Assembly: GCA_965219685.1 (NCBI GenBank)
Contig: CBDCOH010000002.1
Coordinates: 3,072,001-3,136,000 of the forward strand
Direction: 5' to 3'
Length of the DNA: 64,000 nucleotides
From: Candidatus Spongiisociaceae bacterium
GTDB taxonomy: Bacteria; Actinomycetota; Acidimicrobiia; Spongiisociales; Spongiisociaceae
Part shown: in pieces, positions 9,998 through 62,374 of the stretch
Layout of the letters: each line of letters opens with the position of its first letter
How positions within the stretch are numbered: position 1 is the stretch's first letter
Program-made: the position numbers and the translations under genes
The notes under the pieces: generated by a model
What the model saw: the letters and a program-made list of their open reading frames with translations, nothing else
Databases searched by the model: none
What the model was told of the DNA's origin: nothing

Positions 9998-11513
9998 TAG
10001 ACACCCCAGGCGGCAAATGTCAAGCTGCGGCTTGGTCGGCAAATGTCAAGCTGCGGCTTGGTCGAGGGTGGTGCGGTGGGCCCAGGTAGTGTGTTCGTCA
10101 TAGGTGGTTCGGTGTTTGAGACAGCCGTGGAGGATACCCACGAGCCGGTTGGCGAGGGCTCGGAGTGCTTGGTGGTGGAGGTCGCCGGCGGCTCGGCGTT
10201 GGTCGTAGAACGCTCGGGCGCCTGGACTTCGGGTTAGGGAACAGAATGCCCATTGGTCGAGGGCGTCGTAGAGGCGCCGGTTGCGGACGTGGCGGGCCAT
10301 AACGGTGTGTTTGCGGCCTGACGCGATGGTGATGGGCGACGTGCCGGCATAGTTCCTGGGTGACTTGGCGCTGGTGTAGCGTTGGGGGTCGTCCCCGGAC
10401 TCTCTGCGAGCGCCCGGGCGCCGAGCACGGTACCGAGTCCTGGCTGGGAGTGGTAGATGACGGCGTCCGGGTGCTCCTCAAAGCGGGTTTCCAGGGTTGC
10501 TTCGAGGTCTGTGAACTGGCGGTTGGTTTCCGCAATGACGCTCACCAGCGCCCCCACAGTGGCCCCGTGTGCGTCGGTGACCCGCCCAGGAGCGGCGAGT
10601 TGGCGGGTGCGGAGCCCTTTTTGTATTCGACGGGCAGCCGTATCGAGGGTGCGGCGTCGGCCGGCGGCGCGGAGCGCGGCCCTAATCTGGGTGACGGTCA
10701 GGCGGGCACCCCGGGTGGGGGTGGTTGCCCGACCCAGCACGGCGACGGTGTCGCGATTAGCCCGCTCATCGAAGGTTTCGAGGGCTGCGGGGTAGTACTC
10801 GCGCAGGGCGTTGCGGATCTGGTTGGTGTGACGCACCCGAGCCCAGATCAGGTTCTGATGCGTCCTAGCCAGGACTTTGATCCCTTCGGCTTCGGGGCTA
10901 TCACCGGCAACCCGACGATGGTTGTGCCGGTCGGTGCGTACTAGGTCGGCTAACACCTTGGCGTCGCCACGGTCTGATTTGGCCCCACCCTGGCTATGAC
11001 GGGTCCCGGTAACGCGAAACTGCCATCGGGTTGATCGCATACACCTGATAACCCGCCCCGACCAGAGCACCGACCCACAAACCACGGTCACACTCGATGC
11101 CCACCACCACCTCGGACGGATCCGATACGTGCTCGCCGATCATCTCATGCAACTGGGCCACACCTGCCAGACCTTCTGGTAGCCGCCGAGCGGCCAACGG
11201 AACTCCGGACTCGTCCATGAGACACACATCATGATGTCCCTCAGCCCAGTCATCACCCACAAAGATCATCCTTGCCTCCTCCATAGACGGATCACTCTCG
11301 AGCTGTGGAGGAAACGCCTGGCGGCGACCTAGCAGATCAGTGCTCTTCGCGGCACGCCACCCCATGAGCGCTACAAGCAGCCCTCACTCACCGGCCGGAG
11401 CACGATCTATCAACAGGAATCAGAGTTCCAGGAGCTTGGAGTACTCACCGGCCAGCCAGCTCAACCACCACACCCTCCCAGATGAACCAGAAGAAGTGGT
11501 GGACCCCCATTAG
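9998..11513 (-). mobile_element. IS110-family element, lineage A copy A1 (frameshifted)
   Basis: Ends CTAATGGGGG and CCTGGGGTGTCTA with duplicated CTA core; near-identical inverted copy at 16162-17652. Confidence 0.9.
10046..11269 (-). pseudogene. IS110 recombinase with two frameshifts
   Basis: MIFVGDDWAEGHHD, AKSDRGDA and ALRALANRLVGILHGCL lie in three frames; intact homologue at 60890-62110. Confidence 0.9.
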
Positions 11514-12844
11514 GAGCTTTGAGTTCTCCACCACGGTGAGTGTTCTGTCCGCCGCCCCTCAGGTTGGATCGAGAGAAGCCTACTAAGGAGGGAAGTCGCA
11601 TGGTAGACAGCCAGGTCGAAGTGTGTGGTGGGGTGGACACCCATCGGGATACCCATGTTGTGGCGGTGGTCGATACCGCTGGCCGGGTGTTGGGAACCGC
11701 CCCGTTCCCCGCTGATAGGGTCGGATATGAGCAGATGACCAGGTGGTTACGAACACATGGGCAGCTGCTCCGGGTTGGCGTGGAGGGAACCGGCAGCTAC
11801 GGTGCCGGCCTCGCCCGATATCTGACGGAAGCGGGCATAGCCGTGGTTGAGGTGAACCGCCCCAACCGCCAACTACGCCGCCAGAGGGGCGGCAAGTCTG
11901 ACAGCATCGACGCCGAGGCGGCAGCTCGGGCGGCCGCCTCGGGTCAAGCTACCGCAGTTCCCAAATCCGGTGTGGGCCCCGTTGAGTGCATTCGGATGCT
12001 GTTGGTGGCCCGCCGCTCCGCGGTTAAGGCACGCACCCAGGCCGCTAACCAGATCCATGCACTGGTCATAACAGCCCCTGAACACCTAAACGCCAGCTCA
12101 GAGGCCTCAAGATCAAGGCCCGGGTCAGGGTCTGTGCCCGATGGCGTCCCGGTGGGGACCAGACCACGACCGCGTATGCGAAGATGGCTCTGCGCCACCT
12201 CTCCCGCCGATACCAGACCCTCGATGCAGAAATCGCGCAACTCGACGCTGAGATCCGTCGCCTCTGCGCCCAGGCGAACCCTGCTCTCCTAGCCGCCAAA
12301 GGCGTAGGCCCTGACACAGCAGCCGCTCTCCTGGTCGCAGCCGGCGACAACCCCGAACGGATGAAATCAGAGAGGTCCTTCGCGGCGTTATCTGGCACCA
12401 GCCCCGTCCAGGCATCATCCGGCCAAACGGTCCGCAATCGCCTCAACCGGGGCGGCAACCGCAAAGCCAACAACGCGCTATGGCGAATTGCCACCAACCG
12501 GATGCGCACCGACGCCGCCACCAAAGCCTACGTGGCACGACGCAAGGCCGAGGGCAAGAAGAGAAAAGAGATCATCCGCTGCCTCAAGCGGCACATAGCA
12601 CGAGAAATCTACCGGCTCCTGACCAACCCGCCACCAACCCCGAACTGCGCCCGCCTACGGCACCAGCGACAACAAGCTGGCATCACTATCACCCGAGCCG
12701 CCCAACAACTCCGAACCCACCCCAGCCGCATCTCAGTACTCGAACACGGCCGGGACCACAACCACCATCTCGCCACCCGATACCAGAACTGGCTGCACAC
12801 CCACCGACGGCCGACTCCATCGATTTGACAAACATAGGAGCATC
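11514..12844 (+). mobile_element. IS110 lineage B copy B1, main part (left end displaced to 17653-17869)
   Basis: Right end GATTTGACAAACATAGGAGCATC; upstream sequence homologous to 21268-21310. Confidence 0.85.
11600..12828 (+). pseudogene. IS110 recombinase with C-terminal HTH, one frameshift near 12085
   Basis: GGVDTHRDTH, GVEGTGSYGAGL, KSDSIDA, SPVQASSG, RLNRGGNRKAN, IRCLKRHIARE. Confidence 0.9.
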
Positions 12845-13175
12845 GATGAGCGCCTAATCGCGCAGTCGGAACCTGGGCACATCCACCGCCGTTTCCGCCA
12901 CCGCATCCGCACCGGCCGCCAAGCGCCGACAGATCCACCAACACGACCCTCCGATACCCCTTGGACCACACCCGGCTCCGATAGCCGTCACAGACCGGGC
13001 AGGGTTTGCGGGAGCGGATCACCACCAGAGGTTCCCCCTTGCCCAGCTCGTCGGTACCGACCAATCAACCCTCGCCATGGCCTACCTGCAACTCGCACAT
13101 GCGCGTAGGATCAACTCCCACAGGGGTCCTCCTCGCCCTCAAGATGCCCTACTCCCCACTCACTTCCGAAGAACC
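12845..13175 (-). mobile_element. ISL3-family left end and transposase N-terminal fragment
   Basis: End GGTTCTTCGGAAG; zinc-finger CPVC..RVWSKG and RWRKRRWMCP. Confidence 0.8.
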
Positions 13176-14151
13176 TGTTTGCTGTTGTGGTTGGTAGGTT
13201 CCGAGTCGTGGTTTGGATCGTGTTCCTGAGTTGGTGACGTAGCTCGGCTAGTGAGGGAGTTGGTGTGTCGGTGTGTAGTCTGTCCAGCAGTTCGTTAAGG
13301 TCCCATCGTAGGGTTTTACCCTGGCGGGCTAGGTAGATACCGACCTCCTTTATGTGGTATTCATCTTCGTAGTCCAGTAGAACGTAGCCGATTAGCTGAT
13401 ACAACATCGTGTTCGTGATCTTGGGAACGACAGTGGTCTTGATATCTAGAAGACACTCGTTCAATATCAGGTCAGCGTCGGCTCCGCCGATGTCTCCGCT
13501 TCCCTTAAACGTTGGGTTCAGATGGACAGGGTCGGAGAGATGTTCGCTATAGCGTTCATAGAATCTGTTTGACATTGAACACAAGTCGTCTATCCACCGG
13601 TCGTCAGGGATCGAGAGCAAATCCGAAACTGTTGAAGTGTTCGTCTGCGCGAAGAGAAGGTTCTTGGGATGTGCACCGATTCGGAAGAGTTGTTCGAAGA
13701 GAGCAAGAGCGAAACAATACCTATTCAGTTGTCGTTCCTGAACCGTCCCCAGGTCTCTGCCGCATGGATCAACCTGCCCAAGGAACCTCTCCAGGTCCTC
13801 GAAGAACCGACTGATCAGGGCTGGTGAGATAGAGTATCTCCGATCCAGAGTCTGCTTATGGCGGTATGCTCCCTTAAGAGCGACCAGTTCCGTAGAGCGG
13901 GTAATCGCAAAGTAGTAACGAATGCGATAGTCAATCGCTATACCCAATTCCCCATACGGTACAGGCTGATCTAGTAGACTCTCGGGGAGAACAGTATGGA
14001 CCTGTGCCAGTCTCCTGTTCTGCCCCCTGATAACACCACCAGTGTTAGGGAATCTCTCGTAGAAGAACCGACGTATATCATTGTCCGCCATCTGCGGTGA
14101 TCCAAGACGACGATGGCGAGACGGCTTGCTCAAGAAGAAACTCAACGACAC
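13111..14151 (-). CDS. Uncharacterised PD-(D/E)XK-like nuclease; 3' end runs into the ISL3 end
   Basis: GGADADLI..LLDIKTT..YQLIGYVLLD motif; lower GC; start uncertain (14163, 14151 or 14091). Confidence 0.7.
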   Translation of the reverse strand: MSLSFFLSKPSRHRRLGSPQMADNDIRRFFYERFPNTGGVIRGQNRRLAQVHTVLPESLLDQPVPYGELGIAIDYRIRYYFAITRSTELVALKGAYRHKQTLDRRYSISPALISRFFEDLERFLGQVDPCGRDLGTVQERQLNRYCFALALFEQLFRIGAHPKNLLFAQTNTSTVSDLLSIPDDRWIDDLCSMSNRFYERYSEHLSDPVHLNPTFKGSGDIGGADADLILNECLLDIKTTVVPKITNTMLYQLIGYVLLDYEDEYHIKEVGIYLARQGKTLRWDLNELLDRLHTDTPTPSLAELRHQLRNTIQTTTRNLPTTTANRFFGSEWGVGHLEGEEDPCGS

Positions 14152-14260
14152 CAATCCTCCCATCGTAGTAAGTCAAACTGGAACTACTTGGCTGAATAGT
14201 TCCTCGTCACGGACCCGCGGTGCAGGCATTTGTCACAGACTCAACCATATACTCGGGCGA

Positions 14261-16152: not shown

Positions 16153-16164
16153 GGGAAGAACCTA

Positions 16165-16400
16165 ATGGGGGTCCACCACTTCTTCTGGTTCATCTGGGAG
16201 GGTGTGGTGGTTGAGCTGGCTGGCCGGTGAGTACTCCAAGCTCCTGGAACTCTGATTCCTGTTGATAGATCGTGCTCCGGCCGGTGAGTGAGGGCTGCTT
16301 GTAGCGCTCATGGGGTGGCGTGCCGCGAAGAGCACTGATCTGCTAGGTCGCCGCCAGGCGTTTCCTCCACAGCTCGAGAGTGATCCGTCTATGGAGGAGG
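16165..16400 (+). ncRNA. Predicted bridge RNA of IS110-A2
   Basis: Stem ggccggtgagta..tgctccggcc encloses AAGCTCCT (16238-45) and TGATAG (16263-68), matching the reconstructed target; boundaries approximate. Confidence 0.7.
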
Positions 16401-16405
16401 CAAGG

Positions 16406-17629
16406 ATGATCTTTGTGGGTGATGACTGGGCTGAGGGACATCATGATGTGTGTCTCATGGACGAGTCCGGAGTTCCGTTGGCCGCTCGGCGGCTACCAGA
16501 AGGTCTGGCAGGTGTGGCCCAGTTGCATGAGATGATCGGCGAGCACGTATCGGATCCGTCCGAGGTGGTGGTGGGCATCGAGTGTGACCGTGGTTTGTGG
16601 GTCGGTGCTCTGGTCGGGGCGGGTTATCAGGTGTATGCGATCAACCCGATGGCAGTTTCGCGTTACCGGGACCCGTCATAGCCAGGGTGGGGCCAAATCA
16701 GACCGTGGCGACGCCAAGGTGTTAGCCGACCTAGTACGCACCGACCGGCACAACCATCGTCGGGTTGCCGGTGATAGCCCCGAAGCCGAAGGGATCAAAG
16801 TCCTGGCTAGGACGCATCAGAACCTGATCTGGGCTCGGGTGCGTCACACCAACCAGATCCGCAACGCCCTGCGCGAGTACTACCCCGCAGCCCTCGAAAC
16901 CTTCGATGAGCGGGCTAATCGCGACACCGTCGCCGTGCTGGGTCGGGCAACCACCCCCACCCGGGGTGCCCGCCTGACCGTCACCCAGATTAGGGCCGCG
17001 CTCCGCGCCGCCGGCCGACGCCGCACCCTCGATACGGCTGCCCGTCGAATACAAAAAGGGCTCCGCACCCGCCAACTCGCCGCTCCTGGGCGGGTCACCG
17101 ACGCACACGGGGCCACTGTGGGGGCGCTGGTGAGCGTCATTGCGGAAACCAACCGCCAGTTCACAGACCTCGAAGCAACCCTGGAAACCCGCTTTGAGGA
17201 GCACCCGGACGCCGTCATCTACCACTCCCAGCCAGGACTCGGTACCGTGCTCGGCGCCCGGGCGCTCGCAGAGAGTCCGGGGACGACCCCCAACGCTACA
17301 CCAGCGCCAAGTCACCCAGGAACTATGCCGGCACGTCGCCCATCACCATCGCGTCAGGCCGCAAACACACCGTTATGGCCCGCCACGTCCGCAACCGGCG
17401 CCTCTACGACGCCCTCGACCAATGGGCATTCTGTTCCCTAACCCGAAGTCCAGGCGCCCGAGCGTTCTACGACCAACGCCGAGCCGCCGGCGACCTCCAC
17501 CACCAAGCACTCCGAGCCCTCGCCAACCGGCTCGTGGGTATCCTCCACGGCTGTCTCAAACACCGAACCACCTATGACGAACACACTACCTGGGCCCACC
17601 GCACCACCCTCGACCAAGCCGCAGCTTGA
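16406..17629 (+). pseudogene. IS110 recombinase with two frameshifts
   Basis: ORF pieces 16310-16681, 16584-17441 and 17375-17629. Confidence 0.9.
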
Positions 17630-17652
17630 CATTTGCCCGCCTGGGGTGTCTA

Positions 17653-17869
17653 TCAGGTCACATCCGCTTCGAAGCCAAAGCTCCGCCATCAGGTCACATC
17701 CGCTTCGAAGCCAAAGCTCCGCCCCTGACCGGCGGGACAGGCCGACAGATCCCCAGCAAGGCAACACACGCGCCGGATTTCGATTGGGTCAGACCCGCCC
17801 CCCAGTCCAGGGGACCACCACTCATCCTCGCAGCAGTCCCCCTCAAAAGGGCACCTTCAGTATGAGTGA
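17653..17869 (-). mobile_element. Left end and 5' part of the bridge-RNA region of IS110-B1
   Basis: Homologous to 21132-21267 (CACTCATAC end, gggtctgaccc..gatctgtcg loop, GTGACCTGA). Confidence 0.8.
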
Positions 17870-17888
17870 ATTTCGCTGATCGCCAACA
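17868..17888. mobile_element. IS21-type terminal inverted repeat stub
   Basis: Reverse complement tgttggcgatcagcgaaattc versus tgttggcgattagcgagattc at 26443. Confidence 0.7.
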
Positions 17889-20571: not shown

Positions 20572-21133
20572 TCGTAGACGGCTGCCACCCGGACTCTCAA
20601 GGGTGTCGTGTTGGGGATCATAGGCACAGTCGATGATCGAATCCGGCGGCCACGCGCTTCGCCCCTTGCAGAGTGCCCGCGGGCTACGGCGTTCGGGGCG
20701 TCGCGTAGGACTTCCGGGGTTGCTTACGTTCCTACCACTCCTGACCCTGCTCGAGCGATACCTCTGGCCTAGCTCAAGCAGGGTTCGATCTGCCCCACGC
20801 GATCCTGCTTGCGGGTCCTGCTGACGGCAATAAGGACCTGAACCCCGAACTGTTCCCCCCGGCCCAGGACCAGCTGATCGCCGTCACACTCGGCGACGAG
20901 TACCCCAACGGGATAACCGTCAGCGGCTACCTGTCTTCCCGAGTGGGCATCTACCAGCCGAACAACAGCTCACGCTGCACACAGCCAGGGCACACGACCG
21001 GGGCGCCACATGCGCCGACATCGCCGCCACCGTCGGCTACCCGACCGAGATAGTCCGCCAACTGGTCGACCAACACCACTGGGACGACTGCCGGAACTGC
21101 GGCCAACAGAACAACAAGAGGCTTCGCGAAAAC

Positions 21134-21360
21134 ACTCATACTTGTAGGGTCCTCCTCGGCTGGGGGCCGGGTCTGACCCACGCGAAAACTGGCGTTTGGT
21201 GCCTTTCCACGATCTGTCGACCTGGCCCTAGCCGGGAGCCCTGGACCGGGGAGCGGGGTGACCTAATAGGAGCCTTCGACTTCTCCACCATGAGTGTTCT
21301 GTCCGCCGCTCTGCCCGGCTCAGGGAACTTGGAATTGTAGGCAGCCGACGGAAGGCGGGC
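21134..21360 (+). ncRNA. Predicted bridge RNA of IS110-B2
   Basis: Target loop CGCGAAAAC (21181-89) and CCACGA (21207-12) match the flanks; donor loop ATAGGAGC and TGAGTGTT match the element ends. Confidence 0.75.
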
Positions 21361-21362
21361 AC

Positions 21363-22600
21363 ATGGAAGAGCAAGATCGAGCCGATGGCATGGTTGTGGT
21401 CGGTGGGGTGGACACGCATCGGGATACCCATTGTTGGGGCCGCGGTCGATACCACGGGTCGCCTGTTGGGATCGGCCCAGTTCCAGGCTGATACGGCTGG
21501 CTATGGGCAACTGGTTGCCTGGATGGAGTCGTGGGGTCGGGTCAGCCGGGTCGGGGTGGAAGGGACTGGCAGCTACGGTGCCGGCTTGGCCCGTCACCTC
21601 ACCGGCGCCGGTATCGAGGTGGTGGAAGTGATGCGTCCCAACCGCCAGTTACGCCGCCGGAGAGGCAAGGACGACCACACCGACGCCGAAGCAGCAGCTC
21701 GAGCAGCTCTGAATGGCGAAGCAACCGCGGTGCCCAAGTCCGGTGACGGACCGGTCGAGTGGATACGGATGCTGACCGTAGTTCGCCGCTCCGCCGTCAA
21801 GGCCCGCACCCAGGCCGCCAACCAACTCCATGCCCTGGTGGTTGGTGCCCCAGAACCGGTAAAAGACCAGCTAAAGGACATGAAACTCAAAGGCCTGGTT
21901 AAGACTTGTGCCCGCTTTTCGACCTAGCGGAGAGTCCTCCCTCAGCTACACGAAGCAGGCCCTCCGCTGCCTAGCCCGCCGCTACCAGGTCCTCGACACC
22001 GAGATCGCAGAGCTCGATGTCGAGATCCGCCGTCTCTGCGCCAAGGCCAACCCGGCGCTCCTAGCCGCCAAAGGTGTCGGTCCCGACACAGCCGCCAAGC
22101 TGCTGGTCGCAGCCGGCGACAACCCCCAACGCATGAAATCGGAACGGTCCTTCGCTGCGCTGTGCGGCACCAGCCCCGTCCCCGCATCATCAGGACGCAC
22201 AGTCCGGCATCGTCTCAACCGGGGCGGCAACCGCCAAGCCAACAGCGCCCTGTGGCGGATCGCTACCACCCGGATGCGTACCGACGCCGCCACCAAAGAA
22301 TACGTGACCAGACGCGAGGCTGAAGGCAAGAAGCGAACCGAGATCATCCGCTGCCTCAAGCGGCACATCACCCGAGAGATCTACCGGCTCCTCACCAACC
22401 CACCCCCAACCCCGAACTGCCCCCAACTGCGCAACCGGCGCCAACACCAGGGAATCACCGTCACCCGAGGCCGCCCGAACTTTCGGAACCTACCCCAGCC
22501 GCATCTCAGCACTCGAGCTCGGCCGAGACCACAACCACCAACTCGCTACCCGATACCAGAGGTGGCTCCGAACTCCCGAACCCGGCCCGTCGCCGATTTG
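21363..22600 (+). pseudogene. IS110 recombinase with about three frameshifts
   Basis: GGVDTHRDTH, VEGTGSYG, GKDDHTDA and RLNRGGNRQAN in different frames. Confidence 0.85.
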
Positions 22601-22677
22601 ATAAACATAGGAGCATCGTGGGATTTGGGCTGTTCTGGTGGTCGGTGTTGAGGAGCCCTCAACAGGATGAGTGCCGT

Positions 22678-22819
22678 CTATGAGGTCACATCCGCTCCGG
22701 GCTGGCTGCCCGTACCCCCCGACCGGTGCCCGGCCGACAGATCCGGGGTAAAAGGCACCACAGCCAGTTTCCCGGTGGGTCAGACCGGACCCCGGTCGAG
22801 GTCCCTTAAGTATGAGTGT
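22678..22819 (-). mobile_element. IS110-B left-end fragment (B3), orphan target-loop region
   Basis: Near-identical to the reverse complement of 58012-58152; truncated at the CTA of CTATGAGGTCAC. Confidence 0.8.
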
Positions 22820-26442: not shown

Positions 26443-26767
26443 TGTTGGCGATTAGCGAGATTCCCCAGAGTCGATAATCGAAATTCCCCACCCTTGGTGT
26501 GTTGGTGAGTCTAGTTGCGGACTCCTTTCGGTCGGTGTTTTCTGGCTTGGGCGTGGTAGCCGCGTAGCCGGTAGCTGTCTCCTGTGATGGTGAACACGAC
26601 GCTTCGGTGCAATAGCCGGTCGAGCATTGCTGCGGCGATGGTGGTGTCGGAGAAGATGTCTCCCCAGGCGGCGACGCTGCGGTTGGTGGTCAGGATGATC
26701 GAGCCTTTCTGGTATCTGCGGGAGATGACCTGGAACAGGGAGGCGGCTTCGGGGTCGAAGGGGATGT
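26443..26767 (-). mobile_element. istB: IS21 right end with istB C-terminal fragment
   Basis: LFQVISRRY..SIILTTN..WGDIF..AAMLDRLLH..GDSYRL. Confidence 0.9.
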
Positions 26768-27070: not shown

Positions 27071-27095
27071 CTCACGCTCGCCCCACGGCAGACAG

Positions 27096-32077: not shown

Positions 32078-32723
32078 TTACGCCACACGACAATTGCAAC
32101 CAGCCGACGCACCTTTCCGGGTCGGCCCCCACCGCGGATACTCGCTCGATACATGAATCACGCCTGCCGACTGTACCACACATAGCACGCTGCAATCCGC
32201 CCGGCACTGTGTGTATCCGTGACTATCAGACCCATATAGGTGTGTGTAAAACGGTGTCGGTCGGTGGGTTCGTCAACGTGGAGTCCATCCTTGTGGTGTA
32301 CGGGGGGTGCCCATGACACCGCATACAGATCAACAGTTCGGCACATCGCGAGGCCGGTGGCCTAATCCACCGGTATCGCAATTTCGGCAGCCGCCGTGAG
32401 CGTCAACGAAGTTTGCGACAAGGTCGTGTCCGCTACCAGCACTCGGCTGCCATGCCCCGCAGCGTCGTTGATCATCCGCCGGATCGCTTCTTTGTCGTTG
32501 GGAACCGCACCGGCGAGCAGTGCTTCACCGGCGGCCGACACCGCACCCGGTGTAGTGTCTGGCCTTGGCGACATCAACACCGACGAACACCTCGGGAGCG
32601 GGCTTAGGGCTCTCACCCACCAGTTGGTCCTCTTGTTGACGATCGCCTGACTGCAACTGCTTATAGGCGCCGACGCCTCAACCACATCTGCGAACCAGCC
32701 GCTGAACTTCGGTGGATGTCCCC

Positions 32724-32955
32724 TTTACCTTGTTGAGAGGCCCTGATGTGTGAGTATCGGGGCTGGTTGCTCGCCGCGGCGGGCAGGGCTTTGTCCCCCT
32801 GTCAGAGAGATGGCCTGGGGGGTGTTGCCACCCGCCGTGGTTGGGTACCTGCGACCTCTTACAGGGACATGCACCGACAGGGGGCTGGTTCGTAAAGTGG
32901 TTGAGGCGTTGGTGCCCTTGAGTAGCTGCCGAAGCTATTTGCGACTAGAGAGGAC
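32724..32955 (+). ncRNA. Predicted bridge RNA of IS110-D
   Basis: Target loop TGTCCCC (32792-98) and CTGGGGGG (32815-22); donor loop ACAGGGACA (32861-69) and GTAAAG (32892-97). Confidence 0.7.
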
Positions 32956-32961
32956 CAGTTG

Positions 32962-34163
32962 ATGGGTGAGAGCCCTACGCCCGCTCCCGAGGTGTTCGTC
33001 GGTATGGACATCGCCAAGGGCAAACATTACGCCTGTGCGGTGTCGGCCAGCGGTGAGGCGCTGTTCGCCCGGGCGGTTGCCAACGACGAAGCAGCGATCC
33101 GGCGGATGATCGACAACGCTGGGGACCATGGCCGCCCGGCGTTGGTGGTTGATATGACCTCGTCGGCGGCTGTGCTGACCCTCACCGTTGCCGCGGAGAT
33201 GGCGGTTCCGGTGGCTTATGTGACCGGTTTGGCGATGCGCCGAGCTGCCGACCTCTACGCGGGTGCGGCAAAGACCGACCCCAAGGACGCCCAGGTGTTG
33301 GCCGACTTCGCTTGGCGTAACGCGGATCGGCTGACCTGGACAGCTGTCACCGATGAGTTGTTGGCCCGTCTGCGGATCCTCAACGGTCGGGACACAGATC
33401 TGGCCGCCGACGCGACTCGGGCCGCGAACCGGCGGAGAGACGCCCTATTAGCCGTGGTCGGCGGCTCTGGAGCGTGCCGTGGGAGAAAGGCTGATGTCGG
33501 TGCCCGGTCTCAGAGCCGCGCTGGTGAGATACGCCACCCCGTCGGCGCTGCGAACGGCCGGCAAAGCCCGGGTGCGGACGCTGATCTCCAAGCGCTCCAA
33601 ACGCACCGCCAACACACTCACCGACCAGATCTCGGCTGCGCTCGGCTCCCAGACCGTCACGGTGCCAGCCGAGGAGACCTGGGGCGAGACAATCGGCGAC
33701 TTGGCCGCCGACCTGGACCGGATCATCAACCGCCGCCAGCGGCTCGAAGCTGACATCGAGCAGGCCTTCTTGGAGCATCCGCTCAGAACAAGTCCTCAAC
33801 AGCATGTGCGGGTTCGGGCCCCGCACCGGCGCTCGAACCCTCGCTGAGATCGGCGACCCGCACCGTTTCGCCAACCCAGGCCGGCTAGCCGCCTACGCCG
33901 GGCTAGCCCCCGTGGACCGCCAATCAGGCCGCAGCCACCGAACAGGGCGATCACGAGGCGGTAACCACCGACTCAAGAACGCCATGTTCATCGCCGCGTT
34001 CGTTGCTACCCAACACGACCCCGACGCCCGTGCCTACTACCTACGCAAACGCGCCCAGGGCAAAGAACACAACGCCGCGGTCATCTGCGTCGCCCGCCGA
34101 CGCTGCAACATCATCCTGGCCATGCTCAAAACCCAAACGCCCTACCAACCCCGCCAATCCTAG
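32962..34163 (+). pseudogene. IS110 recombinase with two frameshifts
   Basis: VFVGMDIAKGKH, AKTDPKDA, LAAYAGLAPVDRQSG, GGNHRLK. Confidence 0.9.
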
Positions 34164-34578
34164 AAACTGCCCGAAGCGGCTTGACAACAAGACAGGGACA
34201 CCCCCCCCCCAGAGGTCGCAGGCACCCAACCACGGCGGGTGGCAGCACACCCTAGGCCATCTCGGTGACAGGGGAATTGAGCCGTGCCCACCGTGGTGAG
34301 CACGGTGGTGATGGAGTTGCTGCTCGTCTCCACGGACGAAGTGATACGGCCCCGTGTAGACAAGCGAAGGGACGGGTCTTTGTCGGGGTGCTGGTGTTGC
34401 TGGGCGGGGATGGTGCTGCTGGTGGCTCGGTGTGTGGTCGGACGGCGGTTGTGCCTGTGGTCATACGATTTCGGAGTGGGTCCGGGGGCGGATGAGGTCA
34501 CGATTGTGTGGTGGTTCGCTTATCGCGGCGGGCGATGACGTTGTTGCCGGTGGTCTGCTGTGTACGAAGTCGGGCGTG

Positions 34579-41940: not shown

Positions 41941-41987
41941 GCTACCGGACTGTACCGCCGTCCGACACCACCACCAAGGACTATAGC

Positions 41988-44992: not shown

Positions 44993-45013
44993 CCTAATGG
45001 ATCAGTGCTCCTA

Positions 45014-46967: not shown

Positions 46968-47156
46968 TCCTATGGCACGCCACCCCGTGAGGGCTACAAG
47001 GGGTCTCACCAACCGGCCGGGGTACGATCTATGTTCAGGAGTCGGGTTCCAGGAGCATCCAACTCACCGGCCAGCCAGCTGGACCACCATACCCTCCCAG
47101 AAACACCATAAGAAGTGGTGGACCCCCTTAGGAGCATCCGGGCGGTTCAGTTGTAG

Positions 47157-52340: not shown

Positions 52341-52386
52341 GTTTGGGTAGACTACTGGGGTGTGGTCAGTCGCTGACCACCTTGTT

Positions 52387-57976: not shown

Positions 57977-58011
57977 TGAACCGCCCCGGGTTTGCCGGAG
58001 ACTCCGGGGGA
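57977..58011. repeat. IS3-type inverted repeat, left part of a 49-bp IR-IR remnant completed by 62361-62372
   Basis: TGAACCGCCCCGGGTTTGCCGGAGAC is the reverse complement of the IS3 end at 44865-44890. Confidence 0.8.
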
Positions 58012-58231
58012 ACACTCATACTTAAGGGGACCTCGACCGGGGTCCGGTCTGACGCAGCGGGAAACTGGCTGTGGTGCCTTACCCCGGATCTGTCGGCCGG
58101 GCACCGGTCGGGGGGTACGGGCAGCTAGCCCGGAGCGGATGTGACCTCATAGGAGCTTTGGTCGTTTCTTCCCCACACCCTGATGCTTCTATGTTGTGCA
58201 AATCCGGTGTTGGGGGTGGGGAGAGGTTCGG

Positions 58232-59305
58232 TTAGCCGCTGCCGGCGGGGGGTCCTGTATGGGTGTTGTGGTTGGGTGGGTTCTCTAGGAGCCGGTAGAG
58301 GTGGCGGGCGATGTAGCGTTTGAGGCAGCGTCGGGCTTCTCGGGGGGTTTTGCCTTCGGCGGTTCGTTTAGCGATGTAGGCCTGGGTCTTGGGGCAGGTG
58401 CGGGTGCGGGTGATGACGATGGTGTGGAGGGCTTGGTTGAGGGTTCGGTCGCCGTGGCGGTTGAGCCGGTGGCGGCTGTTTTGTCCGGAGGACGCCTCGA
58501 GTGGTGCTACGCCGGCGAGGCGGGCGAAGGCTGCTTCGTTACGGAAGCGGCCCCGGTGTGACCAGGCGACATAGATCTGAGCGGCGGTGATGGGTCCGAC
58601 TCCGGGCTGGTCAACCAGGTGGGGAGCGACTGTTTCGACGAGTTCGGCGATGAGCGCGGTTAGTTCGGCTATCTCGGTGGTGAGAGTCTTGATACGTCGG
58701 GCGACAGATCGCATGGCTGTCTTGGTGGCGGTGTGCTCGGTGAGGGTCCCGCCTCGGAGCCGGAATCTGTGGCACTTGGCGACCAGGCCAGCGGTGGTGA
58801 GGCCCCCGAGTTGGTCCCGCAGACCAACCGGTGCGGTTACTACCAGGGCTTTCAACTCGTTGATCGCCGCCACCCTGGCTGTTTGGGCTCCTCGGCGGGT
58901 GGTTTCCAACACTCGCAGCGCTTCGCGGTTTCCCCGAGCGCGGGGAACTGGCAGCCGACCACGGCCTAGGACCTGGCGGGCGGCCCGCCGTGCGTCGAGG
59001 GCGTCAGTCTTGGCGCCGTCGCGGGTCGGGGTGGGATCCCCGAACTCCACCACCCACTCACCACGGGCAGAAAGGTAGCCGGCCACGCCAGCTCCATAGC
59101 TGCCGGTGCCTTCCACAGACCACACCCGGTCACCTACCCGGGTGTGGGTGCCTGCCCATTCCAGCAGACGGTCGTAACCCACCCGGGTGGCGCCAAACAC
59201 CCCAGATGCCTGCTCTCCGGTGGTGGCAGTGTCCACCACCGACGCGGTGACCCGGTCCCGGTCAGGATCGATCCCGATCACGTGCTCTACCATCGTGGCC
59301 AACAT
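58232..59305 (-). CDS. IS110-family recombinase
   Basis: IGIDPD, VEGTGSYG, AKTDALDA, APLEASSG, HRLNRHGDR. Confidence 0.93.
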   Translation of the reverse strand: MLATMVEHVIGIDPDRDRVTASVVDTATTGEQASGVFGATRVGYDRLLEWAGTHTRVGDRVWSVEGTGSYGAGVAGYLSARGEWVVEFGDPTPTRDGAKTDALDARRAARQVLGRGRLPVPRARGNREALRVLETTRRGAQTARVAAINELKALVVTAPVGLRDQLGGLTTAGLVAKCHRFRLRGGTLTEHTATKTAMRSVARRIKTLTTEIAELTALIAELVETVAPHLVDQPGVGPITAAQIYVAWSHRGRFRNEAAFARLAGVAPLEASSGQNSRHRLNRHGDRTLNQALHTIVITRTRTCPKTQAYIAKRTAEGKTPREARRCLKRYIARHLYRLLENPPNHNTHTGPPAGSG

Positions 59306-59309
59306 AAGA

Positions 59310-59560
59310 AGACGCTCTCTTTCTTGTGCGAACTGGGCTATCGCCTCCTAAGGCGCAGACCGTGACGGCAGGACTGTGATGGGTCACACCCCGGACGGTG
59401 GACAAGCTTCTGATCAGGCCAGCAACGGAACGCCCAGGCGGCGCAGCGGCGGTGTCGGACGCATCACGGTAAAGACACAGAGGTCAGAGTGTTCTCGGGT
59501 CACGACCCCGCCGCTGACGCCAATCCTGGCAACCTCAACGAGACCCACCCGATACTCACA
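59310..59560 (-). ncRNA. Predicted bridge RNA of IS110-C
   Basis: Target loop GAACACTC / ACCGTGA inside stem agcggcgg..ccgccgct; donor loop AGAAGC / TCACAG matches its own ends. Confidence 0.75.
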
Positions 59561-59640
59561 GAGTGTTTTGTCCACCCGCTTCGGACCGGCGCTGCCGCAC
59601 AAATCCTATCCAACACAAGGAGAGGGGAGACACAGGGAGC

Positions 59641-60869
59641 ATGCCGGAACAAGACCAGGTCGATGTGTATGGAGGGGTTGATACCCATCGGGATATCCAC
59701 GTTGGAGCGGTGCTGGATCACACGGGTCGCCTACTGGGGTCAGAGGAGTTCAGGGCTGATGCGGCGGGATACGCGCAGCTGGAGGAGTGGCTCCGCTCCT
59801 GGGGGCAGCCGGTTCAGGTCGGTGTGGAAGGATGCGGTAGTTACGGCGCCGGCCTGGCTCGTTATCTGACCCGAGCCGACATCGAGGTGGTAGAAGTGAT
59901 GCGTCCCAACCGCCAGCTGCGTCGTCTCAGAGGCTGACACGGTCGACACCGAGGCTGCAGCCAGAGCTGCCCTCAGCGGAGATGCCACCGGGCGACCCAA
60001 AGGCGGGGACGGACCCGTAGAAGGGATAAGAATGCTTCGGATGGCTCGCCGTTCAGCGGTCAAAGCACGCACCCAGGCCGCCAACCAGATCCACGCCCTC
60101 CTCACAACCGCCCCTGAGCAGGTCAAACATCGGCTCCGGGACTCCAGTATCCAAGCGATGGTCAGAATCTGTGTCCGCTGGCGTCCCGGCGAAGCGCAGA
60201 CCACCACCGCGTACGCGAAAAAGGCGCTGCGGCACCTGGCCCGCCGATACCGGACCCTCGACACAGAAATAGCCGAACTCGACACCGACATCCGCCGTCT
60301 CTGCGCCAAGGCCAACCCGGCGCTCCTAGCCGCCTCCGGAGTGGGCCCCCACAGCGCTGCAGCACTCCTAGTCGCCGCCGGCGACAACCCCCAACGCATG
60401 AAATCCGAAGCGGTCCTTCGCGGCACTATGCGCCCTCAGCCCCGTCCAAGCATCATCGGGACAGATAGTTCGGCATCGGCTCAACCGAGGCGGCGACCGC
60501 CAAGCCAACAACGCTCTCTGGCGAATCGCCACCAACCGGATACGCACCGACCCCCGCACCATCGAATACACCCGCAGACGCAAAGCCGAAGGCAAAACCC
60601 GCCGCGAGATCATCCGCTGCCCCAAACGGCACATCGCCCGCGAGATCTACCACCTCCTAACCAAACCATCCCCAACACCCGACGGCAACGACCTCCGCCT
60701 CCAACGCCACCAAACCCGACTAACCCTCACCGACACCGCCGAACACCTCCAGGTCCACCCCACCCTCCTATCACTCCTCGAACGAGGCCTCCACCACAAC
60801 CACCAGCTCGCCACCCGCTACCAGAAATGGCTCACCGACCCGACCACAAAACCGATTTGCAAAACATAG
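59641..60869 (+). pseudogene. IS110-B recombinase with C-terminal HTH, frameshifted
   Basis: GGVDTHRDIH, VEGCGSYG; frame breaks near 59933 and 60410. Confidence 0.85.
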
Positions 60870-60889
60870 ACACCCCAGGAGCGCAAATG

Positions 60890-62110
60890 TCAAGCTGCGG
60901 CTTGGTCGAGGGCGGTTCGGTGTGCCCATGCGGTGTGTTCGTTGTAGGGGGTTCGGTGTTTGAGGCAGCCGTGGAGGATGCCGACGAGTCGGTTGGCGAG
61001 GGCTCGTAGTGCTTGGTGGTGGAGGTCGTCGGCTGCTCTTCGTTGGTCGTAGAACGCTCGGGCGCCTGGGCTGTTGTTTAGGGAACAGAACGCCCACTGG
61101 TCGAGGGCGTCGTAGAGACGCCGGTTGCGTATGTGGCGGGCGACCACGGCGTGTTTGCGGCCTGACGCCACTGTGACGGGCGACGTGCCGGCGTAGTTTC
61201 TGCGAGACTTGGCGCTGGTGTAGCGTTGGGGGTCGTCCCCGAACTCACCAAGCGCCCGGGCGCCGAGGACATTGCCGAGTCCTGGCTGTGAGAGGTAGAT
61301 ACCGGCGTCCGGGTGCTCCTCAAAGCGGGTTTCCAGGGCTGCTTCGAGTTCTGCGATCTGGCGGTTCAGTTCCGCAACGACGCTCACCAGCGCCCCCACA
61401 GTGGCCCCGTGTGCATCGGCGACCGGGCCGGGTGCGGCGAGCTGGGGGGTGCGGAGGCCTTTCTGGATTCGGCGGGCAACCTTGTCGAGGTTGCGTCTCC
61501 GGCCGGCGGCTTTGAGCGCGGCTCGGATCTGGGGCAGGGTCAGGCGGGCACCCCGGGTGGGGCTGGTTGCCCGGCCGAGTACAGCCAGGGTGTCGCGATG
61601 GGCCAGGTCATCAAAGGTTTCCAGCGCTGCGGGATAGTATCCTCGGAGCGTGTTGCGCATCTGGTTGGTGTGACGCACCCGGGCCCATTTCAGGTTCTGA
61701 TGTGTTCTCGCCAGTGCTTTGATCCCGTCGGCTTCGGGGCTGTCACCGGCCACGCTACGATGGTTGTGACGGTCGGTTCGTACCAGATCGGCTAACACCT
61801 TGGCGTCGCCACGGTCTGACTTAGCTCCTCCCAGGTGATGCCGGTCCCGGTAACGGGACACCGCCTTGGGATTGATCGCATACACCTGATAGCCCGCCCC
61901 GATGAGGGCACCAACCCAGAGGCCACGGTCGGTTTCGATGCCTACCACCACCTCGGCCGGCTCCGATGCGTGCTCGGCGACCATCTCATGCAAGCCGCCA
62001 ATCCCCTTGATCCCTTCCCGGAAACGAGCGAAACCCAGGCGGGCTCCGTAGGCGTCCATCAGATACACATCGTGGTGGCCCTCAGCCCAGTCGTTACCAA
62101 CAAAGATCAT
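60890..62110 (-). CDS. IS110-family recombinase
   Basis: 406 aa; VGNDWA, GIETD, AKSDRGDA, YAGTSPVTVASG. Confidence 0.95.
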   Translation of the reverse strand: MIFVGNDWAEGHHDVYLMDAYGARLGFARFREGIKGIGGLHEMVAEHASEPAEVVVGIETDRGLWVGALIGAGYQVYAINPKAVSRYRDRHHLGGAKSDRGDAKVLADLVRTDRHNHRSVAGDSPEADGIKALARTHQNLKWARVRHTNQMRNTLRGYYPAALETFDDLAHRDTLAVLGRATSPTRGARLTLPQIRAALKAAGRRRNLDKVARRIQKGLRTPQLAAPGPVADAHGATVGALVSVVAELNRQIAELEAALETRFEEHPDAGIYLSQPGLGNVLGARALGEFGDDPQRYTSAKSRRNYAGTSPVTVASGRKHAVVARHIRNRRLYDALDQWAFCSLNNSPGARAFYDQRRAADDLHHQALRALANRLVGILHGCLKHRTPYNEHTAWAHRTALDQAAA

Positions 62111-62114
62111 CCTT

Positions 62115-62350
62115 CGCCTCCTTCTCCGGGGATCAACTCTCTCCTGAGCTGTCGAGAACGCCTGGCGGCGACCTAATGGATCAGTGCTCTATGGCACGCC
62201 ACCCCATGAGCGCTACAAGCGGTCTCACCAACTGGCCGGGGCACGATCTATGTTCAGGAATCAGGTTCCAGGAGCATCCAGTACTCACCGGCCAGCCAGC
62301 TCAACCACCACACCCTCCCAGAAACACCAGAAGAAGTGGTGGACCCCCAT
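62115..62350 (-). ncRNA. Predicted bridge RNA of IS110-A3
   Basis: Guides GGATGCTCCT (62279-70) and AACATAG (62254-48) match the flanks; CCATTAG and TGGGGTG match its own ends. Confidence 0.78.
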
Positions 62351-62374
62351 TAGGAGCATCCGGGGCGGTTCAGA

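What the first reader, a model, noticed from the sequence alone, without database searches (positions are those of the whole stretch)
9998..62372. Candidate RNA-programmed hierarchy: IS110 bridge RNAs aimed at other IS110 bridge-RNA loci and at IS ends
Seen: where the empty site can be rebuilt, short motifs in a stem-enclosed loop upstream of each IS110 recombinase usually match the two flanks of the core dinucleotide. The targets are: A2 in the left donor guide of B1; A3 and A4 in the right end of B; C in the right donor guide of B4; D in the left donor guide of D'; B in IS3 and IS21 terminal repeats. Established: IS110 bridge RNAs carry target and donor guide loops (IS621), and IS4321/IS5075 target Tn21-type IRs. 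Inference: several lineages converged on the donor guides and ends, which a competitor cannot easily change because guide and end must co-evolve. This gives a safe harbour and disables the victim. I do not know of guide-versus-bridge-RNA targeting being described, but I cannot search the literature.
Basis: partly seen in the sequence, partly recalled or inferred. Interest (0 to 1): 0.95.

Follow-up and report, generated by a model that had tools for sequence, protein, structure and literature searches.

The report
IS110 elements aimed at other IS110s
In a transposon-crowded stretch of a marine actinobacterial genome, RNA-guided IS110 insertion sequences sit precisely inside the guide-RNA genes and ends of other IS110 elements, at sites that their own guide RNAs match, so these programmable transposons are naturally aimed at one another.

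Summary
The core observation holds. Four IS110 lineages (A, B, C, D) each carry an IS621-like two-loop bridge RNA gene upstream of the recombinase. The loop segments covary with insertion-site flanks across relatives.

- Family A sits in B's left donor guide (A_w1/A_w2) and in B's right end (A_w3, plus a remnant at 46970-47131).
- Family C splits B's right donor guide. A 99.7%-identical C copy occupies the same position in a roughly 75%-identical B elsewhere, so these were independent insertions.
- B lies in IS3-type and IS21-type terminal repeats.
- The same A-into-B and C-into-B sites recur in other genomes.
- A_w3's predicted 15-nt target has 8 genomic matches, and 7 are B right ends.

Corrections: "A3" is not in a B right end; it holds the other half of a donor-guide site. 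D-in-D' matches on one side only. Most A relatives elsewhere target non-IS repeats. Some C relatives hit IS110 coding sequence. The two donor-guide sites are only averagely conserved.

Guide-directed IS110-on-IS110 insertion is therefore well supported. The adaptive "hierarchy that disables competitors" remains inference. I found no prior description in six literature searches.

The parts
9998..11513 (-). The recombinase is frameshifted and there is a 23-nt tandem duplication near the right end. Its left-end side abuts the right half of B_w1's left donor guide.
   Evidence: Ends located; alignment; broken DEDD domain; flanks.
11514..12846 (+). It starts with GAGCTTTG, the right half of the left donor guide. 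Right donor guide at 11537-11544; frameshifted recombinase; right end ...CATAGGAGCATC at 12834-12844.
16162..17652 (+). Its right flank is the left half of a B left-donor-guide site.
17653..17870 (-). Outer part of a B left end. It carries the target loop (left guide ATCGAAATC, right guide GCTGGGGAT) and sequence up to GTGACCTGA|TAG. It contains a 35-nt tandem duplication.
17871..17888 (-). Outer part of an IS21-type terminal repeat (TGTTGGCGATCAGCGAAAT|TC) flanking that B left end.
   Evidence: The intact counterpart is at 26443-26480, beside an istB fragment.
21131..22617 (+). B_w2 (alpha subfamily) with an uninterrupted bridge RNA gene: left donor guide ATAGGAGC at 21266-21273, right donor guide TGAGTGTT at 21291-21298. 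The recombinase is frameshifted.
26443..26480 (+). Uninterrupted IS21-type terminal repeat containing the target of the B_w1-type guides (..AGCGAGAT TC CCCAGAG..).
   Evidence: IstB_IS21 domain at 26511-27071 on the minus strand.
32319..32723 (-). D' inner part: left end from GGGGACAT onward plus the N-terminal recombinase fragment.
32724..34210 (+). D: IS110 lineage D. The left end starts TTTACCTTGTTG; the right end is ..AAGACAGGGACA followed by a C run. The recombinase is frameshifted. It is inserted in the left donor guide of D'.
34211..34302 (-). D' outer part of the left end, ending ..GCGACCTCT.
46970..47131 (-). A1 remnant: an A left end with the same guides as A_w3. Its left flank is an IS3 repeat tip plus a B right-end tip (..CCCGGATGCTC|CTA). 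It is cut in its donor loop by the 1957-nt DDE element at 45013-46969.
57977..58010 (+). IS3-type inverted repeat sequence that forms the left target flank of B_w3.
58011..58183 (+).
58184..59560 (-). C: intact IS110 (357-aa recombinase), core TC. Left target guide GAGAACACTC at 59487-59496; right target guide ACCGTGAT at 59463-59470.
59561..60869 (+). B_w3 remainder: right half of the right donor guide (GTGTTTTG..), a decayed recombinase gene, and the right end up to ..CAAAACATAG.
60867..62353 (-). Left target guide GGATGCTCCT at 62270-62279; right target guide GAACATAG at 62248-62255. Both match its own insertion site.
62354..62372 (+). B_w3 right-end tip GAGCATC followed by the tip of the IS3-type repeat (..CGGGGCGGTTCA).

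Best explanation
The window is an insertion-sequence graveyard in an Acidimicrobiia genome. Relatives' records are titled as sponge-associated MAGs.

Each IS110 lineage here (A, B, C, D) encodes, between its left end and its recombinase gene, an IS621-like bridge RNA with two stem-enclosed loops. One loop carries left and right target guides. The other carries left and right donor guides that match the element's own right and left ends.

Insertion is directed by the inserting element's own target loop.
- Two A sublineages carry guides for a site built on the B motif TAGGAGC. That motif necessarily occurs twice per B element: at the right end, and as the left donor guide that must match it.
- C carries guides for B's right donor guide.
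- B sublineages carry guides for IS3- and IS21-type terminal repeats.

This produces three-tier nests: IS3, then B inside it, then A and C inside B. The insertions cut B's donor loop or right end. That should inactivate the B copy in cis (inferred).

The most economical driver is the known IS110 habit of homing to multi-copy, harmless repeats. In these IS-swollen genomes the most abundant such repeats are other insertion sequences. Later homologous or recombinase-mediated exchange between A copies rearranged the flanks. Examples are the A_w1/A_w2 inversion and the hybrid locus L007.

Shown: the anatomy, guide/flank covariation, independent recurrence, and genome-wide specificity of the predicted targets. 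Inferred: RNA expression, activity, inactivation of B, and any selective advantage.
For: FAMILY
- A_w3 and C have both Pfam domains of IS110 recombinases.
- The genome has 24 DEDD-domain matches.

A TARGET LOOP
- In a 25-locus alignment, two hypervariable segments after GAGTACT and GATTCCT change together with the flanks. Target classes are heptamer repeats, REP-like hairpins, and B sites.
- Scores against other-class flanks: 5.57 of 8 versus 3.59, and 3.24 of 5 versus 1.52.
- RNAalifold places both segments in an internal loop between two helices.

B TARGET LOOP
- The left and right guides follow the left and right junctions in most of the 15 B elements aligned, though not all.

B DONOR LOOP
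- ATAGGAGC in the left end equals the right end ..ATAGGAGCATC. There are joint changes in L062 (ATAGAAGC in both) and L061 (GTAGGAGC in both).
- The closing stem has compensatory pairs.

C
- The left guide tracks the left flank in nearly all of the 23 loci that have a left end.

INDEPENDENCE
- The two C copies are about 99.7% identical. Their B hosts are about 75% identical, and the insertion position is the same.
- L002 versus L004/L005 lie in different B subfamilies.

RECURRENCE
- A in a B left donor guide or right end: 8 of 25 family-level loci, from G000, G012 and G006, plus the A1 remnant.
- C-like in a B right donor guide: 4 loci, in G000 (twice), G007 and G391. The B identity of the flanks was confirmed by tblastn and scaffold motifs.

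SPECIFICITY
- 7 of 8 genomic matches to A_w3's predicted target are B right ends. Three of them are exact and unoccupied.
- 4 of 9 matches for C are B right donor guides.

EMPTY-SITE FORMS
- Contigs join 60866 to 62351 with 3 shared letters, and 58181 to 59561 with 2 shared letters. This fits cores CTA and TC.
Against: - No RNA data: no RNA run was listed, so expression of any bridge RNA is unshown.
- No Rfam family matched these left ends, so the RNA model rests on my alignments.
- A_w1 and A_w2 each match on one side only. The inversion that reconciles them is inferred.
- A_w1, A_w2 and all three window B copies are pseudogenes. Much of what is seen is therefore old.
- Some copies do not fit their guides: L047 for B, L026 for C, and the right flanks of L029 and L031.
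- In B and in some C relatives the two junction cores differ (xC on the left, TC on the right). I did not resolve this.
- Several A copies carry a right donor guide (CTGCTAG) that does not match their own left end.
- Kin are not independent, so my counts overstate the number of events.
Confidence: 0.8

Rival explanations
1. Lineages A, C and D converged on donor guides and ends because guide and end must co-evolve and so cannot escape. The intruder gains a permanent safe harbour and knocks out a competitor, giving an RNA-programmed hierarchy or arms race.
For: - Nearly all nested hits fall in a small part of the host element. These are the left donor guide, right donor guide, first ~16 nt of the left end, and the right end: 9 of the 11 IS110-associated C-family loci, and all 8 B-associated A loci.
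- One left target guide serves two sites per B, because donor guide and right end are the same sequence.
- The right-end site is in the top 1.3% of conserved 16-nt windows. The guide cores ATAGGAGC and TGAGTG are nearly invariant among 15 B elements that are 68-98% identical.
- C-into-B right donor guide is seen in two bacterial families.
- Locus L007 keeps only B's two extremities around one A copy. This would be expected if paired A copies delete B bodies.
Against: - The full 16-nt sites in the left and right donor guides are only averagely conserved, at the 53rd and 61st percentile. Many coding windows are more conserved.
- Two C-family loci lie in IS110 coding sequence (L035, and the right flank of L028).
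- Most A relatives target non-IS repeats.
- Three exact A_w3 targets remain unoccupied.
- No fitness or competition data exist.
- The number of independent specificity origins is small, about 4-5.
Confidence: 0.3
2. Structure-gated access. The DNA of a bridge RNA gene is rich in hairpins. IS110 recombinases prefer targets beside or inside DNA stem-loops, as with REP elements, attC sites and ISPpu10. The large loops of another element's bridge RNA gene are therefore unusually accessible targets.
For: - The abstract of preprint 10.64898/2026.03.19.712850 reports that ISPpu10 needs both guide complementarity and a 5' stem-loop in the target DNA.
- B's donor loop is enclosed by a roughly 10-bp GC-rich stem with compensatory changes.
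- One other A target class lies just 3' of a CCCC..GGGG hairpin.
- B targets include IR-IR palindromes.
Against: - Not tested here; no folding comparison of target contexts against controls was made.
- The right-end and coding-sequence targets are not in obvious hairpin loops.
- The heptamer-repeat targets of other A copies have no hairpin.
Confidence: 0.2
3. The host element B did it. B's own recombinase and bridge RNA acted on half-matches to its donor sequences and captured foreign DNA at its donor-guide DNA and right end. This is the mechanism proposed for expanded IS110 loci.
For: Section 8 of preprint 10.64898/2026.08.14.744561 reports that internal insertion boundaries in expanded IS110 loci are enriched for one-sided matches to the housing element's left or right donor sequence. 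By construction, the A and C insertion points in B are such matches.
Against: - The inserted DNA is in each case a complete A or C element, with the same ends as copies at unrelated sites.
- The inserted element's own target guides match the flanks.
- The 3-nt and 2-nt junction repeats are the cores of A and C, not of B.
Confidence: 0.05
4. Chance nesting or copying of composites. In an IS-dense island, insertions into other ISs are simply tolerated, and repeated arrangements arise by segmental duplication.
For: - The region from C2:3.02 to 3.16 Mb holds most IS110 matches of the genome.
- L004 and L005 have near-identical flanks and may be one event copied.
- A_w1 and A_w2 are identical.
Against: - The same base-pair position is hit in hosts that differ by about 25% while the inserts differ by about 0.3%.
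- The same sites are hit in other genomes and in another bacterial family.
- Guides covary with flanks.
- 7 of 8 genome-wide matches to A_w3's predicted target are B right ends.
Confidence: 0.03

Closest known systems
IS621 / IS110-group bridge RNA recombination (Durrant et al. 2024, PMC11208160, passages read; Hiraizumi et al. 2024, PMC11208158, seen only in search listings)
   Same: - DEDD plus Transposase_20 recombinase.
- A structured RNA gene in the left non-coding end.
- Two loops, each with a left guide in the sense of the top strand and a right guide in reverse complement.
- A short core repeated at both junctions.
- Targets are repeated sequences.
   Different: - The core of A is three letters (CTA).
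- B and some C relatives show unequal junction cores.
- The natural targets here are the donor-guide DNA and ends of other IS110 elements, rather than REP elements.
- No biochemical data exist for these elements.
IS4321/IS5075 (IS1111 group) targeting Tn21-family terminal inverted repeats, and IS1111-attC elements (Partridge and Hall 2003; Post and Hall 2009). Only the titles were seen, in reference lists; the content is recalled.
   Same: A member of the DEDD transposase superfamily homes to a functional terminal sequence of another mobile element and interrupts it. B in IS3- and IS21-type repeats is the direct analogue.
   Different: Those victims are DDE transposons or integron sites. For A and C the victim is another RNA-guided IS110, and the sequence hit is the DNA that encodes its donor guide.
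Expanded IS110 loci with one-sided donor matches at internal boundaries (Hu et al. preprint 10.64898/2026.08.14.744561: abstract, section 8 and found passages read) and half-match recombination (Xie et al. preprint 10.64898/2026.08.31.748434: abstract only)
   Same: - Repeated insertion into already occupied IS110 loci.
- Boundaries that match the housing element's left or right donor sequence.
- Some copies here match on one side only: A_w1, A_w2, D, L027-L031.
   Different: - They attribute the boundary matches to the resident element's own system. They do not mention nested heterologous IS110 elements: 'nested' and 'another IS110' each occur 0 times.
- Here the intruder's own target loop explains the position. 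That could account for part of their enrichment.
- Their supplements could not be seen.
ISPpu10 structure-gated targeting (preprint 10.64898/2026.03.19.712850, abstract and outline)
   Same: The target lies beside or within a DNA stem-loop. The insertion site acts as a safe zone.
   Different: A hairpin requirement was not tested here. The targets here are inside another element's RNA gene.

Membership tests
IS110 family (IS110 group) | Recombinase with an N-terminal DEDD/RuvC-like domain (PF01548) and a C-terminal Transposase_20 domain (PF02371) | tested here: met
   - A_w3: 3.4e-32 and 3.5e-09.
- C: 1.1e-11 and 6.2e-19.
- B_w1 and B_w2 carry both domains across frameshifted ORFs.
- D has both domains.
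IS110 family (IS110 group) | No terminal inverted repeats; a short core repeated at both junctions; site-specific insertion | tested here: met
   - A: CTA at both junctions in most of the 25 loci; the heptamer-repeat class (L001, L003, L006, L017, L018) reads CTG at the right junction.
- C: TC at both junctions.
- Contigs of the empty form share 3 and 2 letters.
- In B the left junction reads xC and the right junction reads TC. This is unresolved.
Bridge RNA (IS621 type) | Target-binding loop in the left end whose two guide segments covary with the left and right target flanks | tested here: met
   A; B; C; D left guide only.
Bridge RNA (IS621 type) | Donor-binding loop whose guides match the element's own right end and left end | tested here: met
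   - B: ATAGGAGC equals the right end, with joint changes in L061 and L062. TGAGTG(T/G) is the reverse complement of the left end (A/C)CACTCA.
- C: CAGAAGC against the right end TAGAAGCA; ATCACAG against the left end TGTGAGTAT.
- A: GGGGTG and CCATTAG against the ends. A subset of copies has a non-matching right donor guide.
Bridge RNA (IS621 type) | The RNA is transcribed (from the circle junction promoter) and bound by the recombinase | not testable with these tools
   No RNA run was listed. No Rfam family matches.
IS1111 group | Subterminal inverted repeats, with the guide RNA region downstream of the transposase gene | tested here: not met
   - The long non-coding region with the guide loops is upstream of the gene in A, B, C and D.
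- Right non-coding ends are short, about 30-50 nt.
- The 92-nt inverted repeat around D is the split left end of D', not a subterminal repeat.
IS3 family (host of B-beta) | rve integrase domain, and terminal inverted repeats starting TGA | tested here: met
   - rve match at C2:3022907-3023212, beside B_g4.
- Full copies share the repeat TGAACCGCCCCGG...
- The likeness to the IS6110 repeat is recalled, not tested.
IS21 family (host of the B_w1 type) | istA/istB genes with terminal repeats starting TGT | tested here: inconclusive
   - Only an IstB_IS21 C-terminal fragment is present (26511-27071, 1.7e-23).
- The adjacent sequence TGTTGGCGATTAGCGAGATTCCCC.. lies at 26443.
- No intact IS21 was found in the genome.

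The most novel reading that the evidence does not exclude
Bridge RNA target loops of some IS110 lineages have evolved to read the DNA that encodes another IS110 lineage's donor-guide loop, and the end that loop must match. This would be natural RNA-guided hyperparasitism between RNA-guided transposons. It exploits the obligatory identity of donor guide and element end: one guide gives two sites per victim. Insertion destroys the victim's donor recognition. Pairs of intruder copies then delete or rearrange victim bodies, as in L007 and the A_w1/A_w2 inversion. If so, part of the diversification of IS110 guide loops is driven by conflict among the elements themselves.
Probability: 0.3. Interest if true: 0.85.

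Novelty: new variant of a known kind. Interest (0 to 1): 0.66.

Why it matters
Bridge recombinases are being engineered as programmable genome-writing tools, but little is known about what their guides are aimed at in nature beyond REP elements, attC sites and Tn21 ends.

- **A new natural target class.** These loci show natural target loops programmed against another bridge RNA gene and its cognate end. The same sites recur across genomes, and many natural guide/target pairs come from high-GC Actinomycetota.
- **A different reading of nested IS110 loci.** The intruder's own guide, rather than the resident element's half-match activity, explains boundaries that match the host's donor sequences.
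- **A testable question.** Do RNA-guided transposons compete by targeting each other's recognition code?
- **A practical point for annotation.** Broken IS110 copies in such genomes can be reassembled by removing guide-matched intruders.

Tried and rejected
CONSERVATION AS THE EXPLANATION
- I aligned 15 B elements and ranked windows. The right-end site is in the top 1.3%. The left-donor-guide and right-donor-guide sites are average, at the 53rd and 61st percentile. 'They are simply the most conserved k-mers' is therefore rejected for the guide sites.

RFAM
- No bridge RNA family matched at the gathering threshold for the whole window, or at E<=1 for 57900-62400.
- The only hits are Ms_AS-4, antisense inside A recombinase genes, and one chance lncRNA hit.

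RNA EVIDENCE
- No RNA holder was listed.

LAID CONTIGS
- Only contigs were available. The two precise joints probably come from the genome's own unoccupied B-beta copies, so they are not independent evidence.
- Parts without cover are not interpreted.

COLLECTION-WIDE A SAMPLE
- The best 80 of 355 loci were kept by the tool. A left end was located in 65 and a right end in 77.
- My guide-extraction pattern failed in many of the more distant members (printed as 'None'). Those were not scored for guide match.

IS21 CLAIM
- There is no intact IS21. Only an istB fragment and a repeat-like sequence were found.
- I could not show that B_w1's body and the left-end fragment at 17653-17870 were one element. 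The flank of the body's right end (TC|GATGAGCG..) does not fit the right target guide of that left end.

OTHER ITEMS
- ORFs at 13111-14163, 15142-16152, 18959-20134, 22806-23693 and 24808-25497 gave no Pfam hit and were left.
- The core of B (xC against TC) was not resolved.
- D-in-D' is kept only as a one-sided match.
- Prior description of IS110 guides aimed at another IS110's bridge RNA gene: none found in searches. This covers open PMC and bioRxiv only. Supplementary tables of the bridge RNA papers, which list natural targets, could not be seen.
- One search failed on a script error.
- In one search my pattern picked the target loop instead of the donor loop in 9 of 12 sequences. I repeated it correctly.

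Full report
**Setting.** The window is G000:C2:3072001-3136000 of a 4.4-Mb genome with 63% G+C. Records of close relatives are titled as Acidimicrobiia / Candidatus Spongiisociaceae MAGs.
- The genome has 24 matches to the IS110 DEDD domain and 19 to Transposase_20. Most lie between C2:3.02 and 3.16 Mb.
- Self-comparison and copy-versus-copy alignments define four IS110 lineages in the window.

**Family A (about 1.49 kb).** The ends are CTAATGGGGG... and ...GGGGTGTCTA, with CTA at both junctions in most copies.
- Window copies: A_w1 9998-11513 (minus strand), A_w2 16162-17652 (plus strand), A_w3 60867-62353 (minus strand). A_w1 and A_w2 are identical and both frameshifted. A_w3 has an intact 406-aa gene.
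- A decayed remnant lies at 46970-47131. Two further copies lie elsewhere in the genome.
- In an alignment of 25 left ends (5 from this genome, 20 from five other genomes of the family) everything is conserved except two short segments.
- RNAalifold places those two segments on the two sides of an internal loop between helices.
- The first segment has the sequence of the left flank plus CT. The second is the reverse complement of CTA plus the right flank.
- Target classes:
  - a heptamer tandem repeat (L001, L003, L006, L017, L018);
  - a REP-like hairpin repeat (L008-L011, L014-L016);
  - ..CAC|CTA|GC.. sites (A_g1, A_g2, L013);
  - B elements.
- Over 23 distinct guide-plus-flank combinations, the left guide matches 5.57 of 8 variable positions against 3.59 for flanks of other classes. 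The right guide matches 3.24 of 5 against 1.52.
- This is the IS621 architecture as described in PMC11208160 (passages).

**Family B (about 1.48 kb).** Fifteen distinct B elements, 68-98% identical, from four genomes share the left end (A/C/T)CACTCATA.. and the right end ..CATAGGAGCATC.
- Target loop: a scaffold GGGTCTGAC(C/T)CA-[left guide]-CTGGC...GTGCCTT-[right guide]-GATCTGTCG. The two variable segments follow the left and right junctions. Examples are CGCGAAAAC with ..gcgcgaaa|AC, and the reverse complement ATCGTGGGA with TC|gtggga.
- Donor loop: GCGGATGTGACC-[T.ATAGGAGC]...[(G/T)TGAGTG(T/G)]-..CTGTCC(A/G)CC, closed by a stem with compensatory pairs.
- ATAGGAGC equals the right end. It changes together with the right end in L062 (ATAGAAGC in both) and L061 (GTAGGAGC in both).
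- TGAGTG(T/G) is the reverse complement of the left end, and follows the A/C difference there. These are therefore B's left and right donor guides.
- B-beta copies lie in an IS3-type repeat: GAGTCTCCGGGG..|..CGGGGCGGTTCA. Intact repeats and an adjacent rve domain are shown.
- The B left-end fragment at 17653-17870 is flanked by TGTTGGCGATCAGCGAAAT|TC. Its guides fit the intact sequence at 26443-26480, which lies beside an istB fragment.
- Other B lineages target the last 8-30 nt of another repeat.

**A in B.**
- A_w3's flanks read, in B's orientation, CAAAACA TAG [A] GAGCATCC GGGGCGGTTCA. That is B_w3's right end 8 nt from its tip, inside the IS3 repeat.
- A_w3's guides GGATGCTCCT and GAACATAG match this site at 8 of 8 and 4 of 5 positions.
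- The remnant at 46970-47131 has the same guides and the same left flank.
- A_w1's left flank is ..CAAAGCTC|CTA, followed in B orientation by TTTGAGTTCTCCACCACGGTGAGTG. That is the right half of B_w1's left donor guide and then its right donor guide.
- A_w2's right flank is CTA|TCAGGTCACATCCGC, the left half of a B left donor guide with its scaffold.
- Together the two flanks rebuild one site. The two A copies are inverted and identical. I therefore infer one on-target insertion, a second copy at a poor site, and an inversion between them.
- In other genomes:
  - L002 and L004/L005 (G012) lie in the left donor guide of two different B subfamilies.
  - L020 (G012) lies in a B right end within an IS3 repeat tip.
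  - L007 (G006) has a B right-end tip on one side and a B left end up to the donor guide on the other. It is a hybrid that joins two B contexts through one A copy.
- B-associated loci: 8 of 25 family-level loci, in three genomes.
- A_w3's predicted 15-nt target has 8 matches at up to 1 mismatch in the genome. Seven are B right ends; three of those are exact and unoccupied.

**C in B.** C (58184-59560, 357-aa intact gene, core TC) splits B_w3 at CCCTGA|GTGTTTTG, which is the right donor guide.
- A second C copy, differing by a few letters, lies at the same position (CACCTTGA|GTGTTC) in a B that is about 75% identical to B_w3. The two insertions were therefore independent.
- An order-wide search of 401 genomes gave 22 more loci.
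- Their left ends share a scaffold in which a 10-nt segment tracks the left flank plus core in nearly every case. Examples are GGGCCCACTC with ggggcccac tc|, and ACATATGCGC with gacatatgcgc|.
- Of 24 loci, 11 lie in other IS110 elements:
  - 4 in a B-type right donor guide (C_w, C_g, L021 in G007, L023 in G391 of another bacterial family);
  - 1 in the first ~16 nt of a B left end (L024);
  - 3 just downstream of an IS110 recombinase C-terminus (L025, L029, L031);
  - 1 directly after a C-like right end (L033);
  - 2 in IS110 coding sequence (L035, and the right flank of L028).
- The remaining 13 showed no IS110 signature in my tests.
- C's predicted target at up to 2 mismatches has 9 genomic sites, and 4 are B right donor guides.

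**D.** Relatives show that D's left end starts TTTACCTTGTTG, so the 76-nt piece I first took for foreign sequence belongs to D. The right end is ..AAGACAGGGACA followed by C-rich flanks.
- D's left target guide (..TTTGTCCCCC..) covaries with left flanks in relatives.
- ACAGGGACA in the left end equals the right end, so it is the left donor guide.
- D (32724-34210) lies in the inverted D' exactly at D' variant donor guide GGGGACAT. This gives a 7-nt left match, but the right flank is unlike the usual C-rich right flanks.
- It is one event and a one-sided match.

**What explains the pattern.**
- Chance nesting and copying of composites are excluded by the results above.
- Capture by the host element's own half-match activity is the reading offered for boundary matches in expanded IS110 loci (preprint 10.64898/2026.08.14.744561, section 8). 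It does not fit. The inserts are complete A or C elements, their own guides match, and the junction repeats are their own cores. This is also seen in empty-form contigs sharing 3 and 2 letters, though those probably derive from the genome's own unoccupied copies.
- The simple idea that donor guides are hit because they are the most conserved B sequences fails for the two guide sites and holds only for the right end.
- A-into-B is lineage-specific. In the best 80 of 355 collection-wide A relatives, 2 have a B recombinase in the flank, and a third (L080) has B remnants. All three come from the window's family.
- I therefore favour heritable guide-directed homing to abundant harmless repeats. In these genomes those repeats are other insertion sequences.
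- The concentration on donor loops and ends is a real but unexplained bias.
- Inactivation of B by these insertions follows from the anatomy. All three B copies in the window are pseudogenes anyway.

**Novelty.** Six full-text searches and the passages read found reports of IS110 targeting of REP elements, attC sites and Tn21-family repeats. They also found repeated insertion into occupied IS110 loci. They found no report of a target loop aimed at another IS110's bridge RNA gene. Supplementary target tables could not be seen, and subscription journals are not covered.

Noticed in passing
window 45013-46969 and 62373-64000 (continues beyond the window); also C2:4048988-4050944: Three 100%-identical copies of a 1957-nt element with a DDE_Tnp_1 transposase (588-aa ORF on the minus strand). 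The copy at 45013-46969 sits in the donor loop of the A remnant and is flanked by a TAG repeat. The copy at 62373 abuts the tip of the IS3 repeat next to A_w3.
   Followed up: partly
window 61208-61289 (+), 10364-10447 (+), 17228-17311 (-): Rfam Ms_AS-4 (an Actinobacteria sRNA family) matches at 64-81 bits, antisense inside the recombinase genes of all three A copies. The family model may simply have been built on an IS110 coding segment.
   Followed up: no
loci (B left ends), e.g. window 21131-21330: In family B the target loop and the donor loop have alignable scaffolds: GGGTCTGAC...GTCGGCC against GGATGTGAC...GTCCACC. My search pattern picked one for the other. The two loops look like paralogous modules.
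   Followed up: partly
L002, L020, A_w1, A_w2 (window 11240-11300 and 16380-16440): Several B-targeting A copies carry CTGCTAG where the others have the right donor guide CCATTAG. Their left end is still CTAATGG, so guide and end do not match. Some of them also have GAGGGGGTG in place of CATGGGGTG.
   Followed up: no
window 22618-22700: Between B_w2's right end and an inverted B-beta left-end fragment (22678-22820) the sequence reads ..GCCGTCTA|TGAGGTCACATCCGC. The B fragment stops exactly at the A-type site in its left donor guide, after a GTCTA that resembles an A-like right end. This may be a further, mostly deleted, event.
   Followed up: no
C2:2939823-2939870 (outside the window): A 48-nt palindrome made of two IS3-type repeat tips with nothing between them. 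It contains an uninterrupted B-beta target.
   Followed up: no
window 9998-10040 and 17654-17725: Short tandem duplications at junctions: 23 nt near A_w1's right end, and 35 nt (GGCGGAGCTTTGGCTTCGAAGCGGATGTGACCTGAT, twice) in the B left-end fragment next to A_w2.
   Followed up: no
L020 (G012): An A copy whose last six letters are replaced by a second copy of its left target sequence (..CCTGGGG|ATGCTCCTA|TGGTTGTC). The target half-site flanks it on both sides. This may be a product of one-sided recombination.
   Followed up: no
L027-L031 (G293): Five identical C-like copies share the left flank ..GATTTGAC. Three have a right flank that fits the right guide (TC|aggcc). Two have a right flank that looks like an IS110 right end. 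Natural one-sided matches seem common.
   Followed up: partly
window 824-3181, 27096-31910, 34579-42015, 47157-50483 (all minus strand): Very long ORFs with internal repeats of about 111-147 nt (families D1, D5, D14, D15). They lie between the IS clusters and were not examined.
   Followed up: no
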